DNA of 64,000 nucleotides from assembly GCA_964057225.1 (NCBI GenBank), contig OZ059894.1, positions 6,882,001 to 6,946,000 on the forward strand. Reading direction: 5' to 3'. Position 1 is the stretch's first letter. Each line of letters begins with the position of its first letter. This document shows, piece by piece, positions 1 through 13,300 of this stretch. Under the pieces are notes generated by a model that worked only from the letters and a program-made list of their open reading frames with translations, searched no databases and was not told where the DNA came from. Position numbers and translations under genes: made by a program. This DNA comes from Auanema rhodensis. Lineage: Eukaryota; Animalia; Nematoda.

Positions 1-2835
1 AAATTCAGTTATTTGTGGAACCATATTAGTCCAAAAGAATCGTCGTCGAATCGCATCAGTAGTTTTATTTATACCTAGGTGTGCACCAATTTTGGAATCT
101 TCGTGAAAAAATTTGATGACAACATCAGTTATTTTGTCGTTTCGCGGCAAAATAATAGATGGTTTTAAATAATTTTTCACTTGTTTTGCATGTAATATGC
201 CTTCTCGTTCTTCATACCGGTCTGATATATTAGCCGGACAGTTATCATTATTAATTTGAGAAAGTGCTTCGCGAATCCAGGGAACTCCAGCTTGAACTTT
301 CCGTATTTCTTCACAATTTAGTTGGTCAATAGAAGAAATAGTTGTAATATGAGCAATAAAAGCATCAACAGGTTTTACTTTGTCCTTTGGTTTAGTAGGA
401 CGACTGTCATTTGCTTCGTTTCCTATATACCTGGAGAGAGCATCACAGACACTGTTTAATTTGCCAGGACGATATTCAATCTTTATGTTGAAATCTTGTA
501 TCATTAGTTGATACTTGGCTAATCTACCTATGAGATCTTTACGCGACATTAAACTGGTTAATGGTCGGTGATCTGTGATAACTGTGGTAGGTACTCCTAA
601 TACATAGGTACGGAATTGTTGAAGAGCAAAGACTAAACCGAGTGCTTCAACTTCAATAGGAGGATATTTCCGTTCCGCTGGAGTCAACTTTCTACTAGCG
701 AACGCAATCGGGTGTAATGGAGAATTTTTCTCTGCTGATTGCAATAAAACTGCTCCCACAGCGATCATACTGCCATCACTTTCTATAACAAAAGGTTGGT
801 CTGCTTTAGGAGGTTTCAGTACAGGGGCAGTACACAGTAATGTTTTTAAAGTTTTAAATGCGTCTGCATGTTCCGATTTCCACTCAAAAGGAGTATCCTT
901 ATGTGTTAACTTATACAATGGCTCAGCTATTCCGGCATAATTTTGAATAAACCGTCGAAAATAGTTAGTCATACCTAGAAAGGATCTGACAGCCGTAACT
1001 GTGCTTGGATTTGGAAATTCGGAAACAGCCTGTATTTTAGCAGGATCTGGTTTAACACCATTTCTACCTATTATAAAACCCAAAAACTTTACTTCAGTGG
1101 CTGCAAAACAACATTTAGATAACTTAATTTTTAACCCTAGTTCAGTGACCTTTTTCAGCACTTCTTGTATATCTCTTAAATGTTCATCAGCTGAGTTCGA
1201 AATTATTAGCAAATCATCTAGATATACAAACAGTTTGCATCTAACAAGAGATTGCAAGTATCGTACTGCGGATTGAAAAGTGTGTGGCGCTCCACACAAT
1301 CCCATAGGCATTCGGCAATACTGATAGGTACCTGATGGAGTGGTAAAAGCAGTTAGGTGTCTATCTGAGCGTTTCAACGGTATTTGGAAGAAACCAGAAA
1401 TGAGATCAAAATTCGAAAAGAACTGAGCTCCAGCCGCTAAGTCTATGATATCAGGAATGTGTGGGATGCTGTATGTTTGTTTCTTAGTAACACTATTCAA
1501 TGCTCTAAAGTCAGTTACGAACCGGAAAGAATTATCTTTCTTTTTCACAAGAACAACTGGACTAGTGAAAGTAGCCGTCGAATTTTCGATTATACCTTGC
1601 GACAACATTTCTTTCACTTGCCGTTCTACTTCTTCTTGCTTACCCAATGGTACTCTGTAAGATCTACTTTTTGGGAAATCCATATCGGATCTTATAGGAA
1701 TGGCATGTTCTACTGGTCCGCAAAAGAGACCAATATTATGATCATGGTTGAAAAATGCCGTTTGGTTTTCCTTAATGATTGTGATCAGATTTTTCTTCAT
1801 TTTATGGGACAGAGTGCAAGAATTGAAGTTCAAATCATCCAAAAGATGCTGAGGAAAAGTTGGTAACTTATCTTCCCAATCAGCTTCAGGTGGAACATAA
1901 TCGTTCATAATTTCTTTAGATGCTATAAGTCCTGAACCAATGTGGTCATTTTTATTAATTTTAATTGGCTTTGAAGAATTGTTTGATACTACCATAGTAA
2001 TAGGAAAAGGTCCTATGGCGGCATCTGGAATTGAGATAGGACCTATGCTAGATTTTAAAAGAGCATATTGATCAAAATCTAATTCTGGTCCTGTTTGCAA
2101 AGATATGTGGGAGGTACTATGTGGTGGAACTGTTACTGTGGACAAACTTATGATATTTACTGTTTTAGTTGTGGTTTTATATGCAAAACAACCAGGTTTT
2201 ACTAAGGGTGTTTCCATATTACCAACAATCAACTTTCCTTTACATAGTTTTAATGTAGTAAATATCTCTCTTTCTTCCAACGTACGCATAAAATCAGTAC
2301 CAAGTAACATTTGTCCTGGACAGTCATTGTCTTCAGATATTAAAAATTCGTGTTCCACTTGGTAACCTGCTATACCCACATCTAACTTGCATTTTCCCAC
2401 AAAGCGAAACTCTGATCCATTTGCAGTGGATGCAGATTTAGAATATTTTGTAAAATATTGTCTTCCAATATATGCCAATGTGGAGAACGGAATATATGAG
2501 ACCGTAGCTCCAGAATCCCATAATGCTAACAGTCCTCTACCTTCAATGTCAATATGAACAAACGGTAACATGTGTCCATTTTTCTTTGTTGTTGTGTGAC
2601 ATACAAAAGGTATGGCTAAAGGAATGTAAGTTATTATGGTGGGAAAATAGCTCCGCATCAATTCATCACTAACTGTTTCATGAATCTCATCTCCCTCAAG
2701 TGGTGGAGCTGTTGGGCTCAACATGATATGGTTTATTTTTAACATAGAAGTAGGGGAGAGATAACATTTTATAGTGAAATATAATGCTATCATTAGACAT
2801 AATATCAGAGTTATACAACCGATGGTAATGAGTGT
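1..2835 (-). CDS. pol: Pol polyprotein frame (TM remnant, aspartic protease, reverse transcriptase, RNase H, start of integrase); 3'-partial
   Basis: Manual translation gives ALWDSGATVSYI (protease, ~2500-2530), SPVVLVKKKDNSFRFVTDFRALN and FVYLDDLLII (RT), ESDGSMIAVGAVLLQ / EVEALGLVFAL / TDHRPL / CDALSR (RNase H), and HEDSKIGAHLGINKT...FFW (integrase zinc-binding start). It is missing from the ORF track because it runs off the window. Confidence 0.95.
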
Positions 2836-3035
2836 TCATTCAATTGAACCTATACAAAAGTCAATGAACAGATCCCAATTGGAGAAAACAATTTTCCTGG
2901 CATCTCTTATAAGTTTACTTCCTTTGAAGATAAAAGAAGAAATTTGAGGCCAATCATGTGAACGAGAAATTACGCGGAGAAGATTATGGTGAGGTGAAGT
3001 AGATAAACTATAACCATAAGTTAATCCAATAGAAG

Positions 3036-3614
3036 TTAATCCAACGTTTTCAACATTGGTTCCCGCTCGGGATCCATTGGTGACATTATGGTGCTTGCCA
3101 TTCTCTCTAATTCCATACTAAAATCAAGAACAGATTTATCTCCTTGTTGTACTCGATGAATAAGCGCTATGGTGAAATTTTTATCTGTTTTAGGCGCTAA
3201 AAGCTCAGTGAGCTGATCCATCAAAACAATCCATGGGCCATTAGTTTTTATGCCACTAGGAATACTATTATACAAGGAGAGAGCTGTTTCATTTGATTCC
3301 AAAAGAAGAGGCAAAATTAATAGTCTCTCAGGTAAGCTTAGATTCATAACATTAAAAAATCTATTTAAAGATTCAACAAAAGAACGAAAGCTACGAGAGC
3401 CGTCATACCTGGGACAGAGATGGCAATTTAAAATAGTTGCCATATTTCTAGAGGGTGGAGCAACATTAGAATTAGGAGATGGAGAGGTAGGAGTCATTTT
3501 TCTTTCAAAAGCTTTAGTTATAGCAGCGGCCCACCGACTTGGTGATCTATTTCGTACTGTAGTAGGTGCCCGAGGTGTTTCCTCAGTGATGGCCTTTCTG
3601 CTTTTACTTCTCAT
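3036..3614 (-). CDS. gag: Gag capsid-like protein, C-terminally truncated
   Basis: PRYDGSRSFRSFVESL and QQGDKSVLDFSMELERMA (resembles the major homology region). It stops shortly afterwards with no zinc knuckle. First ATG is at 3614. Confidence 0.8.
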   Translation of the reverse strand: MRSKSRKAITEETPRAPTTVRNRSPSRWAAAITKAFERKMTPTSPSPNSNVAPPSRNMATILNCHLCPRYDGSRSFRSFVESLNRFFNVMNLSLPERLLILPLLLESNETALSLYNSIPSGIKTNGPWIVLMDQLTELLAPKTDKNFTIALIHRVQQGDKSVLDFSMELERMASTIMSPMDPEREPMLKTLD

Positions 3615-4810
3615 TCTAATTGTTAGAGAAGAAGAGTGAGAAGAAGAAGAGGAATCACCTTCTTCTCTCAAAAATTCAAAAGGAGAGAGGTAGGTGGATG
3701 GAGTATTTAAGTTTTTAGAATTAAATTCAAAAACTTGGCGTACCTCTGGTGATCCTTGTTCCTGATCTTTGTTTTCCTCGCTGATGTCCGAGTCCGACAG
3801 GGTGGCTGGTGAATACAGTTAGATGAATATAAGAGCGCGTACTGGAAGCAACTAGACTCCAGTAAAAACGTTTGTGACAATGGCGTCTGATGAAGGAGGA
3901 TCGTTGAAGCTTCAAGCTCCGCCTCCAGCCATGTGTCACGACACCAGATGTTAGCGCTTATGGTAAACAACCATTGACCGTCTGTCGTGATATTTGAATA
4001 TTATAATCACTTATGTCAGCTTAGAGACAAATAAGGAATCACAGATGGTGCCTTAAGCCTGTTTGAAAACTTTTGAATTTTAACAGCTGTTATTGACTAC
4101 ACATATCGAACAGCTGGTACGCGTGGGCCAACTATTTGAATGTGAGTAAGCTTAAAGTAAACAAAAATGTCTCATCTCGTATATTAAGTTCAATTTTATA
4201 AAGTTTATTAAGATTTGTAGAAAGAATTTCAAAATAAATCTTAATTAAGATAATTTTTAATTTAATTTCAAAAGATTTAGAAGGTAATTTAAGATTGATA
4301 TAGGAATTTAAATTCAGTAATCTGTCAATAATATAGGAAAGAGGAAACGTTGGCAGACGTAGAGTGGACTTGGGTGGGTAGGAATTTAAATATTCTTATT
4401 ATCTCTGAACTAATAAGAAAAGAGTTAACAGGAGTAGAACCCTGATGAACCCTTGGATGTGAATCAAAATCAAAAATCGTAAATAAAATTATCCCAACAG
4501 CCTCCAGCTTCCAAACAACTCAGCTAAAAAGTGAGCTCTGTTGCCACACTGGACATTCACATCATAAAGTAATGAATCAAAATAGCACGCGCGTGCATAA
4601 CAAAAAGGTAACGCTCGTCAAAACTATTGTCTGATAGTTTCCCCAAACGTCTCAGACACCTCCCAGTTTTTGTTGAGCGGAGGAGAAGTGGTAGCCAAAA
4701 TAATTTTTGGGGAAATCATGGTGCACGGCTCGGTTACTCCTCACTGTTGGGTAATTAAGTCCAAAAGTCTCGTAAACTTGCTGTCAATAAATTAACAGTA
4801 GAGTAAGCAA

Positions 4811-4823
4811 GGTGGAACCTCCA
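4811..4823 (-). promoter_or_regulatory. Primer-binding site of element A, complementary to the tRNA-Gln 3' end
   Basis: Minus strand reads TGGAGGTTCCACC immediately after the LTR end, matching the eukaryotic tRNA-Gln 3' end ...GGTGGAACCT-CCA. Confidence 0.88.
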
Positions 4824-5204
4824 CGTTACATATCGTTTCTTCCCGTCTTTTCATGGTCGGAAGATATATGTACTTCTACCTTGTTCCTTAGGTAGGCAGA
4901 CCCGAACGCCCCGATTTCCTTATTAAGACAAATACTCAAAGAGAAAAGGATTCATTATCAGATAACAAGAAAATACAATATAAGAATTACATTAAGAAGG
5001 AATATAAAGAGATATAATAAAGTATTAAATAGAGTATATATATAGATGATATAGAGATGAGACTCACATGACTATAAGACAACCTATCTGGGTTAGACCA
5101 GAAGCAAGAGTGTCATGTGTGTCCCATGTTGTAGGCGGGGCTTGTTCAGGCTCCCGCTATTTGGATGGCGCGCACATGTTTACCATGTGCTTGCAGATGT
5201 GACA
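4824..5204 (-). repeat. 5' LTR of element A (381 bp, TGTCACAT...ATGTAACG)
   Basis: Bounded by the PBS on one side and the interrupted tRNA on the other. It has imperfect terminal inverted repeats and an AATAAA on the element strand near 4920-4925. The partner LTR lies outside the window. Confidence 0.85.
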
Positions 5205-5237
5205 GACCCACGCTCTAACCGACTGAGCTATGGCGGC
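5205..5237 (-). pseudogene. 5' half of a tRNA-Ile(AAT) gene, interrupted at the anticodon loop by element A
   Basis: Identical to the first 33 nt of the intact copies (GCCGCCATAGCTCAGTCGGTTAGAGCGTGGGTC). Its upstream flank matches the array spacer at 9598-9634. Confidence 0.93.
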
Positions 5238-5274
5238 CACGAATCTGGCATTTCGCTATCAAACTTTGTTATAA

Positions 5275-5687
5275 TGTTCCATACGTGTCCTATAAGTAGA
5301 GCGATTGACAACGTCAATCGCTTATAAAACGGAACATTATAAAAACAAATAGCTGACGCTACATTTGAGAAACAGGAATTCAATGCAACAATGAACGAAC
5401 ACTTTTTCATATTAAGTTTAATTAAAGAAAGCCCAATTCAAGCGGAACCAAGTTCCGCGGACCTGATATAACCACTTTTTATGCTCGTAAGGAATACTAT
5501 ATAAGGTTTCCTTACGAATCCTTTGGGCTGCGACTAGGAATCATTATGTAACTTTTATTATTGTAATTTGTATACTTTATCATGAATAAACCTTTCTCTC
5601 TATACTCTTTATCATTTATATTTGGAAGAAAAGAAAGTAATTCCATGTGGTTACCCAGCCGGAACCCTGGGGAACCACCATGGAACG
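5275..5687 (+). repeat. 5' LTR of element B (TGTTCCAT...ATGGAACG)
   Basis: Identical by eye to 9057-9469. Contains TATATAA (~5498) and AATAAA (~5585). Confidence 0.96.
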
Positions 5688-8854: not shown

Positions 8855-9056
8855 AAAGAACTTTTGAAAGATTCCCAGTATGATATATGATATATTATTT
8901 TGTAATTACATTGTTTTCCTTTATTTTTTCTCATAAAATTGTTCTGTATTATAAGTATTCTTTTATTTTTTGAAACATTTCATACAACTTTCACATTTGC
9001 ATGGAATTTCACTTTCTCGATGTAGCTGAGGTCAGCTACTTTTTCGATATTAGGCA

Positions 9057-9469
9057 TGTTCCATACGTGTCCTATAAGTAGAGCGATTGACAACGTCAAT
9101 CGCTTATAAAACGGAACATTATAAAAACAAATAGCTGACGCTACATTTGAGAAACAGGAATTCAATGCAACAATGAACGAACACTTTTTCATATTAAGTT
9201 TAATTAAAGAAAGCCCAATTCAAGCGGAACCAAGTTCCGCGGACCTGATATAACCACTTTTTATGCTCGTAAGGAATACTATATAAGGTTTCCTTACGAA
9301 TCCTTTGGGCTGCGACTAGGAATCATTATGTAACTTTTATTATTGTAATTTGTATACTTTATCATGAATAAACCTTTCTCTCTATACTCTTTATCATTTA
9401 TATTTGGAAGAAAAGAAAGTAATTCCATGTGGTTACCCAGCCGGAACCCTGGGGAACCACCATGGAACG
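9057..9469 (+). repeat. 3' LTR of element B
   Basis: Identical by eye to 5275-5687 and followed by the ATAA TSD. Confidence 0.96.
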
Positions 9470-9523: not shown

Positions 9524-9597
9524 TGCCGCCAGCAGGGGTCGAACCTGCGACCTTGGGCTTATTAGACCCACGCTCTAACCGACTGAGCTATGGCGGC
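9524..9597 (-). tRNA. tRNA-Ile (anticodon AAT)
   Basis: GCCGCCATAGCTCAGTCGGTTAGAGCGTGGGTCT-AAT-AAGCCCAAGGTCGCAGGTTCGACCCCTGCTGGCGGCA forms a full cloverleaf with A and B boxes and a downstream T-run. Confidence 0.97.
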
Positions 9598-9684
9598 CAC
9601 GAATCTGCCATTTCGCTATCAAACTTTGTTATAACCTGTCGCAATCAAGTTTTGAATAATTTAGAAGTTAAAAATAAAAGGTTT

Positions 9685-9758
9685 TGCCGCCAGCAGGGGT
9701 CGAACCTGCGACCTTGGGCTTATTAGACCCACGCTCTAACCGACTGAGCTATGGCGGC
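9685..9758 (-). tRNA. tRNA-Ile (anticodon AAT), second intact tandem copy
   Basis: Identical to 9524-9597; array period is 161 bp. Confidence 0.97.
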
Positions 9759-10393: not shown

Positions 10394-13300
10394 TTATGGC
10401 TCAGATGCTTTACGAGCAACTGATGTTTTCGTAAATTGTATTATTTTCTTGAACGGATTGAGTGCAGCTATTTGTGATTTTCTTCGTCTTAGTGCAGAGC
10501 GTAAGCCAGTATCTAAAAATATCATTAAATTCCTTTTCAGTCACCAAAACTAACCATCATGTGCGTGATCTTCATGTACAATTCCATTTTCAATTTCAAG
10601 GGGCAGGACGTGTGAATGACTACGTTTTCGTCTAAATATTGAAACTACTTAACAATGTTGTTTCTAATCTGTTCACATACTTAGATGCGGTTATTGGTAC
10701 ATGTGGATTGGCATCAATAGAGAAGTGAAGAACCTGCGACGAAACAGATGCAGAATACGGCCGACACGGCTCATCGGCATAAAGCTGTAAGTCTTCATAA
10801 TATTGAGGTGTTCTTGTTCTTTTTATTAATTAAATGTTGGCAAACACACCGCTCGTATTTCTTTGCGCCTAATTTCAGGAGCTGGAGGAGGTGGTGATGA
10901 GGGTAATATTCGGTAATGCTCATCTGATTTCACGAGAGCCAGATACCCGTATCCTTCAGTAGCCTGAAAACCAAATGGTAAACTTGTGGAGAATGATGAT
11001 GTGAAGTACCTGTTCCAATTGAGTGGCGAATTGTGCTTCTAATTCTCGGAATGATGGTCTCTCACTTGGATTTTCATGCCAGCATTTAACCATCATTTCT
11101 CCACTACAATTCAAATCAAGATTAATATTTATATAAATAAAACTCACATTCGATCATTAGCAAGTAATGGCTTGATTGGCCGATTGCCAGCTTGAAGATG
11201 ATTAGCAACATCAGTGACATCTATATCCTTGAAAGGTGATTCACCCCATGAATACATTTCATATAATAGCATTCCGAATGACCATCTGAAATGAATTTCC
11301 AACAAATATTCAAATTCTGATAAAGTAATCTCACATATCTGTTTGAACTGAAAATTCTCTTCGAGCCAAGGCTTCTAAGGCTGTCCATTTAATTGGTAAT
11401 TTGAGATCATTTGGTGCAATTATCTTATCAGAATCCAATTTCAATGCTAAACCGAAATCACTAATCTGAAAATTTTGGAGATCTAACCTTAAAGAGAAAA
11501 AAAGTACTTTTGCTGTTTTGATATCTCCTACTCCAGTAATCAAAATATTTCGAGCAGCTAAATCACGATGGACTACCTTCTTCTCACCAAGATATTCCTG
11601 TTAGAATATTTTCTTTAGAACTAAAAAGTAATTTAAACAAACCATTCCTTGTGTTATTTGATGACTAAATGTCAAAAACTTTTTTGTAAATTCCCAAGTT
11701 TCATCAATTGATTTAGTCTGAAATAGATTTTTTAAAATTTTGATTTATAAATAAATGAAAAACTAACTGTATCTATGTCCAACTTGGATTGTTTCACAAA
11801 TTTCAACAGATCTTTGAATGGACAGAACTCAAGTACAAGCTTACAGAATGTTGATGATGTTATACATCCAAGCATTGTTACTATATGATCATGATAACCT
11901 ATGTGCTTCATCTAATATTATATTATTTGTTTTTCAAAAAATAATTATTCTTATGTAACATACAATATTAATTTCTTTGAGAAATGTTTCCCTGGCAGCT
12001 AATGGAACAAGTTTAACTACACATTCGACATCAGTAAATCTATCCTTCTCTTCTGGTAAATAATGAGCAATAGCAGGTGAATATCCAATAAGTTTAGCTG
12101 AAAATCATCGAAAATGTCTTTAATTTTGAATTTATCAAACCAATGTTAACACTTCCTTGTACACCTCTACCAGCAAGTTCATTCTTTACTATCAGATGTT
12201 CTTCAGATAATTCATAATAATCAAACCTATCAATGCTTGTGTTAGAGCATAAGCTTCAAATCTTAAAAACTTACTCTAACTCTTCATCAACAACTTCTTC
12301 TTCAGTATTTTGAACATTATTTCTGAATCTAGCTATCTTTTCCATCCAAATGTATTTTCTTCGATAAAGAATTGTTACAATGACGAGAAGAAGCACAACA
12401 CCAGCACATGCTCCAATAACAATAAACATAATTGTTGAAAAGCTTGCTTCTAAAAGAAATCATAATATTAGAGAATTGTTTGAAATACTCTTACTACTCT
12501 TTTTCGAACAAATTTGTATTTCTTCATTCTTATTATTACTGAAATCTGGATCAGAATGTACATGAGCTGGACTATATGTTTCATTCTTGTAAATGTCTGC
12601 TGCTAACTGAAATGTAAATGAAAAAAAACTTGTATGTTTTTAATGAAAAGGTATACCGTATCAAAGCAATAAATTTCAAAATCAAAACGTCCAAGAGATC
12701 GAATAAGACTTTCGTCTGTATGAAGAGCATCAATAAAATTCTGAAAAGAAACATTGAAAAACTGAATGAGAAGAATATTATGAAGACCTGGGATGCAAAA
12801 TCTGTAAGCAATGTAAGCTTCGGTTCGCCAATCTTCAAGTTTTGACTAATAGGTATGGCAATAGCACGTCGAACAAGTTGCAACGTTGTATTTTCATAAA
12901 CATCAATAGCTCGAGCTAAGATTAATAAGATGTAAATTATAATTTTTATAAATTTCATTCATACAAGCATCTAAAAGGACTTCTTCACTTCGTAGACTTT
13001 CCAAATGATTTTTGATGGAATTATAATTATCTAGCCAATTAGAATCCGAGTTATCCCGAGCTAAAAATCGTACCAAAATCTTGTCTTTATCACTCTGAAA
13101 TATTGAATTAAATGAAAAATTAGAAAAGAAATATTTGAAATATACCAAGCAATCTCGTAATGGATCCAAAACATAGTTAATTGCATTATTAAATTGATCT
13201 TGAGTTGTTCGATTAGAAAGAGCAAATAGATAGATGAAATGAGAAAAATCAGCAAATTGGCTACTTTCCTGAAAAAAAAGTTTTTTTCAAAAAAAAAATA

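What the first reader, a model, noticed from the sequence alone, without database searches (positions are those of the whole stretch)
2600..3045. Transmembrane helix and PTAPP late-domain motif fused in frame upstream of the protease: remnant of a gag-env-pol gypsy element
Seen: the pol frame begins TLITIGCITLILCLMIALYFTIKCYLSPTSMLKINHIMLSPTAPPLEG... (TM at 2835-2770, PTAPP at 2715-2701) before the protease. Just upstream, across one TGA (2838-2836, probably once TGG) and a 1-nt frameshift near 2940, is an amphipathic aromatic stretch (HDWPQI-SSFIFKGSKLIRDARKIVFSNWDLFIDFCIGSIE). Known: gag-protease junctions normally have no TM helix, env normally follows integrase, and P(T/S)AP recruits ESCRT-I in budding viruses. 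Inference: this is the membrane-proximal region, anchor and cytoplasmic tail of an envelope glycoprotein placed between gag and pol in one polyprotein, with most of the ectodomain deleted in this copy.
Basis: partly seen in the sequence, partly recalled or inferred. Interest (0 to 1): 0.8.

Follow-up and report, generated by a model that had tools for sequence, protein, structure and literature searches.

The report
Broken nematode retroelement, envelope before polymerase
This is a damaged copy of a retrovirus-like element, likely from a nematode, that has lost about 3 kb and keeps only the likely membrane-anchor end of its envelope protein in front of its enzymes; that gene order is already published, but the PTAP motif beside the anchor recurs in one in five relatives and would, if it works, be a budding signal not found in the papers searched.

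Summary
The helix (2832-2776), PTAPP (2715-2701) and the stop (2838-2836) are real. The claimed frameshift near 2940 is not: 3033-2836 is in the pol frame, and the break is an 11-nt filler at 3044-3034. Sibling copies hold 2,985 more letters there (one bridging contig; one or both ends in 7 of 8 runs). Relatives show gag, a gB-type (class III) ectodomain, a helix, a tail of about 70 aa and the protease in one protein: helix in 54 of 71, gB-type Pfam hit in 22 of 28, fold match to herpes gB. GAG-ENV-POL nematode Ty3/gypsy elements are published (PMC13524379, citing Sacco 2022, which I could not read), and this scan met the layout before on other DNA. So: a dead copy of a new member of a known kind. 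One addition: P(T/S)AP stands in 12 of 61 relatives' tails against 0.2 expected, in at least two distant clades; a role in ESCRT budding is untested.

The parts
4824..5204 (-). 5' LTR, 381 bp, begins TGTCACA; one copy in the window
   Evidence: Begins where a tRNA-Ile copy breaks off (family D3); other contigs reach 5204 from purine-rich sequence, as a 3' LTR would (loose ends); ends at the primer site. Limits inferred, second LTR lies outside the window.
4812..4823 (-). Primer binding site, tRNA-Gln type
   Evidence: Same 12-mer as listed for Clat_errantivirus_4 and Ctro_errantivirus_1 in PMC13524379 supplement file 2
3045..3818 (-). 5' part of gag, cut by the deletion (first ATG at 3614; true start not settled)
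   Evidence: ORF; blastp to gag of P0011 and P0129, E 5e-12 and 6e-12; Pfam Retrotrans_gag only weak, E 0.15
3034..3044 (-). 11-nt filler at the deletion joint, copy of 3029-3019; shifts the frame and stops gag
   Evidence: only two occurrences in the window; run X4 has 2,985 other letters in its place
2839..3033 (-). Last 65 codons of the envelope ectodomain (membrane-proximal region), in the pol frame
   Evidence: Aligns with the stretch before the helix in P0002 (0 of 5000 shuffles as high) and P0013 (1 of 5000); P0002 1-147 aligns with the ectodomain end of gB-bearing P0003 and P0011 (0 of 1000 each)
2836..2838 (-). Stop codon in this copy
   Evidence: sibling copies differ at this codon in 6 of 8 runs, X1 has it, X12 does not cover it
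2776..2832 (-). Predicted transmembrane anchor of the envelope
   Evidence: Kyte-Doolittle 2.63; a like segment in 54 of 71 proteins with 150 aa or more before the protease
2572..2775 (-). Tail or spacer of about 68 aa between anchor and protease; INHI at 2736-2725 (possible protease site), PTAPP at 2715-2701
2284..2556 (-). Aspartic protease
   Evidence: Pfam PF13975 E 2e-7
1069..1548 (-). Reverse transcriptase core
   Evidence: Pfam PF00078 E 3e-35
490..882 (-). RNase H
   Evidence: Pfam PF17919, PF17917
1..135 (-). Integrase zinc-binding start; the element runs off the window edge
   Evidence: Pfam PF17921 E 5e-8

Best explanation
This is an internally deleted, likely dead copy of a Ty3/gypsy element with the order gag-env-pol, and the helix and PTAPP are likely the anchor and inner tail of a gB-type envelope whose outer part was lost. 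Shown: the copy lacks about 3 kb that sibling copies hold at 3044-3034; it has two breaks (filler with frame change and stop, and the TGA); whole relatives carry gag, gB-type ectodomain, helix, tail and pol in one protein. Inferred: in whole copies one long protein is made; gag stays in the cytosol, an inner signal sequence sends the ectodomain into the ER, the helix seen here stops the transfer, and tail plus protease-RT-integrase return to the cytosol, so capsid, envelope and enzymes are tied together at the membrane until cleaved. Inferred, weaker: P(T/S)AP in the tail binds TSG-101 (ESCRT-I) during budding and is then released on a short spacer between two protease sites, as HIV p6 is (parallel recalled). 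The filler looks like a polymerase-theta repair scar (recalled).
For: Bridging contig: run X4 record 27 (4,217 nt) joins 3045 and 3033 with 2,985 letters between, a multiple of three that keeps gag and pol in one frame. Loose ends at exactly 3033 or 3045 in X1, X2, X3, X7, X9, X10. Helix within 250 aa before the protease in 54 of 71 proteins. PF24664 or PF00606 before the protease in 22 of 28 long proteins, in 4 of 4 and in P0003. P0129 (Caenorhabditis nigoni, 2,256 aa) is one protein from gag to integrase, 47% identical over the pol frame. RT-RNase H tree: the window sits in a 10-row clade (support 99) whose six named rows are all nematode. Model of relative P0017 matches herpes gB (best E 6e-8) and nyami- and rhabdo-like glycoproteins. 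A first hydrophobic segment before the ectodomain in 11 of 13 long relatives. P(T/S)AP in 12 of 61 tails, shuffles 0.21, maximum 4; in 0 of 24 rows without a helix; best anagram 3 of 57.
Against: The 2,985 letters were not seen, so that they are free of stops and code for a gB-type protein in this very family is inferred; only one contig bridges both ends. The 65-codon remnant matched only 2 of 54 relatives and two profiles built from relatives did not score it above shuffles (265 and 112 of 2000 as high). PF00606 hits never reach the curated cut-off. The fold match is partial (pTM 0.33, rmsd 7-14 A, about 10% identity). 49 of 61 relatives lack P(T/S)AP, among them the nearest, P0002. No binding or budding was tested.
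Confidence: 0.93

Rival explanations
1. The layout is as described, but P(T/S)AP is not a budding signal: it sorts the membrane precursor into endosomes, serves as a spacer for protease cleavage, or is a relic of the old gag end that stayed beside the protease when env moved in.
For: Absent from 49 of 61 tails and from whole clades; it lies between two candidate protease sites, 21-43 aa before the protease; no PPxY or YPxL enrichment to replace it where it is missing (1 and 2 of 57, chance 0.9 and 0.8).
Against: The exact order P-[ST]-A-P is enriched, its anagrams are not; ASAP stands at the same place in two more; 0 of 24 rows without a helix have it; the window's remaining gag has no such motif.
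Confidence: 0.45
2. In this family the missing 3 kb is not an envelope; the helix anchors gag-pol or an unrelated insert.
For: The interval was not read; the remnant has no Pfam hit; a few relatives have gag and helix-protease with little or no ectodomain between (P0040, P0019).
Against: Homology chain remnant to P0002 to gB-bearing P0003 and P0011; the expected distance from gag break to helix (1,062 codons) lies within that of relatives (767-1,608 aa); all nearest long relatives carry a gB-type domain.
Confidence: 0.04
3. The env end and pol came together by a chance rearrangement of ordinary gag-pol-env copies, or the deletion is an assembly error.
For: The deleted joint is seen only in X1 and X7 (one study, possibly the window's own source), with 30 letters on one side, just under the tool's 31-letter rule.
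Against: Helix-tail-protease order is shared by 54 of 71 proteins; contigs of other runs cross 2588-3033 without a joint; the filler is a clean local copy.
Confidence: 0.03

Closest known systems
GAG-ENV-POL Ty3/gypsy elements of Nematoda with HSV/gB-type ENV (PMC13524379, eLife 2026; 36 nematode elements in supplement file 2, all Chromadorea)
   Same: Gene order, gB-type envelope in relatives, tRNA-Gln primer site (8 of 36 listed as Gln; 2 with the same 12-mer), LTR length in the same range. P0014, in the window's clade, resembles Clat_errantivirus_4 by eye.
   Different: This copy is deleted and broken. Nearest protein found is 70% identical in RT-RNase H (P0002, Auanema), so it is a separate family. 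The paper's main text has no mention of PTAP, ESCRT, budding, polyprotein or cytoplasmic.
Non-canonical nematode endogenous retroviruses of Sacco et al. 2022, J Gen Virol 103:1739 (not held; title and citing sentence seen; the name NERV and the continuous gag-env-pro-pol ORF are recalled)
   Same: env before pol in nematodes; nyamivirus glycoprotein among fold matches of a relative agrees with my recall of that paper.
   Different: Could not be compared in detail; whether it notes late-domain motifs is unknown.
Atlas virus and other phlebovirus-env nematode elements (PMC9094657, search listing only)
   Same: Nematode LTR element with a captured viral fusogen.
   Different: Class II GN-GC envelope; no class II fusogen is among the listed fold matches here.
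HIV-1 p6 and other P(T/S)AP late domains (recalled; listing)
   Same: Same four-residue motif just before the protease.
   Different: There it is part of Gag; here it follows the envelope anchor. Function not tested here.

Membership tests
Ty3/gypsy (Metaviridae) | pol order protease-RT-RNase H-integrase | tested here: met
   Pfam order in the 945-aa frame
Ty3/gypsy (Metaviridae) | LTR followed by a tRNA primer site | tested here: met
   LTR 5204-4824 and primer site 4823-4812
Ty3/gypsy (Metaviridae) | Two LTRs with a target-site duplication | not testable with these tools
   The 3' end lies outside the window and no genome is held
Nematode GAG-ENV-POL elements (NERV, nematode errantiviruses) | env between gag and protease | tested here: met
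   gag, gap of 2,985 nt in siblings, env end, helix, protease
Nematode GAG-ENV-POL elements (NERV, nematode errantiviruses) | HSV/gB-type ectodomain | tested here: inconclusive
   Met in the nearest relatives; deleted in this copy and not read in its siblings
Nematode GAG-ENV-POL elements (NERV, nematode errantiviruses) | One continuous ORF from gag to integrase (recalled for NERV) | tested here: inconclusive
   Broken in this copy; the sibling interval keeps the frame; P0128 and P0129 are single proteins
Nematode GAG-ENV-POL elements (NERV, nematode errantiviruses) | RT groups with nematode env-before-pol elements | tested here: met
   10-row clade, support 99, named rows Auanema, Heterorhabditis, Caenorhabditis, Diploscapter; the published sequences themselves were not in the tree
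Nematode GAG-ENV-POL elements (NERV, nematode errantiviruses) | Host in Chromadorea | not tested
   Host inferred from relatives only
Class II (phlebovirus-like) env elements, such as Atlas | GN-GC-type envelope | tested here: not met
   Listed fold matches of relative P0017 are class III or proteases
P(T/S)AP late domain | Motif on the cytosolic side, kept beyond chance | tested here: met
   12 of 61 tails against 0.21; cytosolic side inferred from topology
P(T/S)AP late domain | Binds TSG101 and is needed for budding | not testable with these tools
   No binding or release assay

The most novel reading that the evidence does not exclude
Nematode gag-env-pol elements carry a working ESCRT-I late domain not in Gag but behind the envelope anchor, on a p6-like spacer, kept or regained in several lineages. 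That would be sequence evidence that these elements bud as enveloped particles by the retroviral route, and it names the host factor to test.
Probability: 0.4. Interest if true: 0.6.

Novelty: new member of a known kind. Interest (0 to 1): 0.3.

Why it matters
The layout itself is known, and this copy is dead, so the locus adds one family. What could matter is the tail motif: whether nematode env-carrying gypsy elements leave the cell as enveloped particles is, to my knowledge, open, and a recurring P(T/S)AP points to a plain test (TSG-101 binding, host ESCRT knockdown). The single-protein layout also implies that protease, RT and integrase are delivered into the particle tied to the envelope tail.

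Tried and rejected
No genome is held, so other copies could not be searched there. A scan of metagenome contigs found no relative. Two profiles of the pre-helix region of relatives (45 and 9 rows) did not detect the remnant; only pairwise matches did. The amphipathic moment was not significant. A sequence search of P0033 against solved structures gave no fusogen. Sacco 2022 is not held. Paper searches for a late domain in gypsy elements gave none that fits: 0 papers; 32 papers, 15 listed, none on retrotransposons by title; 6 papers, general reviews and abstract books by title; some searches found only PMC13524379 or nothing. No RNA holder is on record; X12 is only guessed to be RNA, so expression is not addressed. 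Contig depths were not used as copy numbers. The protease-only tree was weak (7 of 48 branches starred). PPxY and YPxL were not enriched. A sequence look-up in earlier findings gave nothing. DeepTMHMM and HHpred were not available; hydropathy stood in. No complex prediction was run. Rejected: frameshift at 2940; class II envelope; chance fusion.

Full report
Observation. The minus strand of 5204-1 holds a Ty3/gypsy element. Frame 2835-1 is open for 945 codons with protease, RT, RNase H and the start of integrase. Its first residues form the most hydrophobic 19-mer of the frame (2.63, next 1.29), followed by PTAPP at 2715-2701 and the catalytic Asp at 2517. Upstream, across the TGA at 2838-2836, the same frame stays open to 3117. 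There is no frameshift near 2940. An open frame of 172 codons with at most one stop has a chance of 1e-4 or less, so the stretch is coding or was so until lately.

Where the copy is broken. gag runs from 3818 to 3045 and then meets 11 nt (3044-3034) that copy 3029-3019 and occur nowhere else in the window; they change the frame and stop gag at 3038-3036. Public runs hold the element (15 rows, 4 studies). I laid 8 of the 15. In run X4 one contig of 4,217 nt covers 2588-3033 and 3045-3830 with 2,985 other letters between. That is 995 codons, and both ends fall on codon borders, so gag and pol would share a frame; I did not see the letters, so absence of stops is inferred. Loose ends at 3033 occur in X1, X3, X7, X9 and at 3045 in X2, X3, X9, X10; X12 shows neither. 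The deleted joint is covered only in X1 and X7, of one study, with 30 letters on one side. The stop codon differs in 6 of 8 runs; X1 has it and X12 does not cover it. So the family has longer copies, and the window holds a damaged one.

What the missing part is. Searches gave 5, 2, 121 and 5 proteins. Of 125 proteins examined, 71 have 150 aa or more before the protease, and 54 of those (the window's own among them) have a hydrophobic 19-mer of 2.0 or more within 250 aa of it; the median tail is 71 aa. I scanned 28 long ones of my choosing (27 of the 121, plus P0007): 22 have PF24664 (Monjiviricetes fusion glycoprotein) or PF00606 (herpes gB) before the protease at E 0.001 or less, 6 of them also Retrotrans_gag further up; 6 have neither env family. 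All 4 new long hits have one too. PF00606 stays under its curated cut-off throughout. P0129 from C. nigoni is one protein of 2,256 aa from gag to integrase. A model of P0017 (26-row alignment, mean pLDDT 66, pTM 0.33) matches herpes gB in the PDB (best E 6e-8) and nyami-, rhabdo-like and herpes glycoproteins in BFVD; the matches are partial, and no class II fusogen is listed. The window's 65-codon remnant aligns well with the pre-helix stretch of only 2 of 54 relatives, P0002 and P0013, but those matches are strong and end at the helix; P0002 in turn aligns with the ectodomain end of P0003 and P0011, which carry the gB-type domain. Broad profiles failed to detect the remnant. On RT-RNase H (31 rows, quick tree) the window falls in a 10-row clade with support 99, nearest P0002 at 70%; named rows are from Auanema, Heterorhabditis, Caenorhabditis and Diploscapter. 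The host is therefore inferred to be a nematode.

How it likely works. In 11 of 13 long relatives a first hydrophobic segment (15-mer of 1.8 or more) lies before the ectodomain. The simplest topology is a protein that crosses the membrane twice: gag in the cytosol, inner signal, ectodomain in the lumen, the anchor seen here, then tail and enzymes in the cytosol. Signal peptidase, furin in some, and the element's protease would cut it (inferred). A motif of the type (V/I)N-x-(V/I) is in 30 of 57 tails against 1.2 expected; related words stand after the protease and before integrase in the window; I read them as protease sites (inference from position). This copy can make neither full gag nor envelope.

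The PTAP motif. P(T/S)AP is in 12 of 61 relatives' tails; shuffles give 0.21, at most 4. In the first count it occurred 4 times in the other 62,494 residues of the same proteins. Eleven anagrams score 0-3 of 57. For 7 of the 12 the motif lies outside the stretch by which they were found, so the query did not select it. The 12 fall in 12 separate tail clusters of 57 and in at least two distant, well-supported clades; two more relatives have ASAP at the same place. None of 24 rows without a helix has it in the 90 aa before the best protease match. It lies 21-43 aa before the protease and often a few residues after the candidate cleavage site, much as HIV p6 does (recalled). Against: four in five relatives lack it, the nearest among them, and nothing was tested for binding.

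What is known. PMC13524379 states that nematode, bryozoan and flatworm elements carry HSV/gB-type ENV in the order GAG-ENV-POL and credits Sacco et al. 2022 for nematodes. I saw passages, section 5 part 1, all 36 nematode rows of supplement file 2, 15 nematode rows of file 3 and a search of 7 supplements for PTAP and PSAP (0 and 3 hits; the two shown are in ectodomains). Its figure supplements are images and could not be read. Eight of the 36 use a tRNA-Gln primer site, two with the very 12-mer found at 4823-4812. Sacco 2022 is not held; its details are recalled. That the tail motif is not in print rests only. Three earlier findings of this scan describe the same layout on other DNA; they agree but are not evidence.

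Verdict. Real feature, correctly read in the main, two details wrong. A dead copy of a new family of a known kind. Interest 0.3, carried mostly by the recurring tail motif.

Noticed in passing
window 3744/2615 (minus strand): All 8 runs laid hold contigs that skip 3743-2616; the skipped part begins GT and ends AG on the element's strand, and in the runs that show it these copies leave the window's sequence again at 2573. Likely a short non-autonomous derivative copied from a spliced RNA that drops gag and env; short sides (20-43 letters), and a deletion with two shared letters is not excluded.
   Followed up: partly
window 5204-5274: The LTR sits inside a copy of a tRNA-Ile gene (matches 9564-9634; whole genes at 9524-9597 and 9685-9758), and 5274-5573 repeats at 9056-9355. 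Whether the family prefers tRNA genes was not tested.
   Followed up: no
proteins P0040 and P0019: gag and helix-protease with a short or undetected ectodomain between: other env-deleted copies or gene-model errors.
   Followed up: no
proteins P0003, P0017, P0066, P0131: Long threonine- and proline-rich inserts in the ectodomain, perhaps mucin-like.
   Followed up: no
proteins P0015, P0022, P0041, P0043, P0045: Two or more protease-like stretches in one protein.
   Followed up: no
window 10800-11600 (minus strand): Short exons of a host tyrosine-kinase-like gene, read by eye from the ORF list.
   Followed up: no
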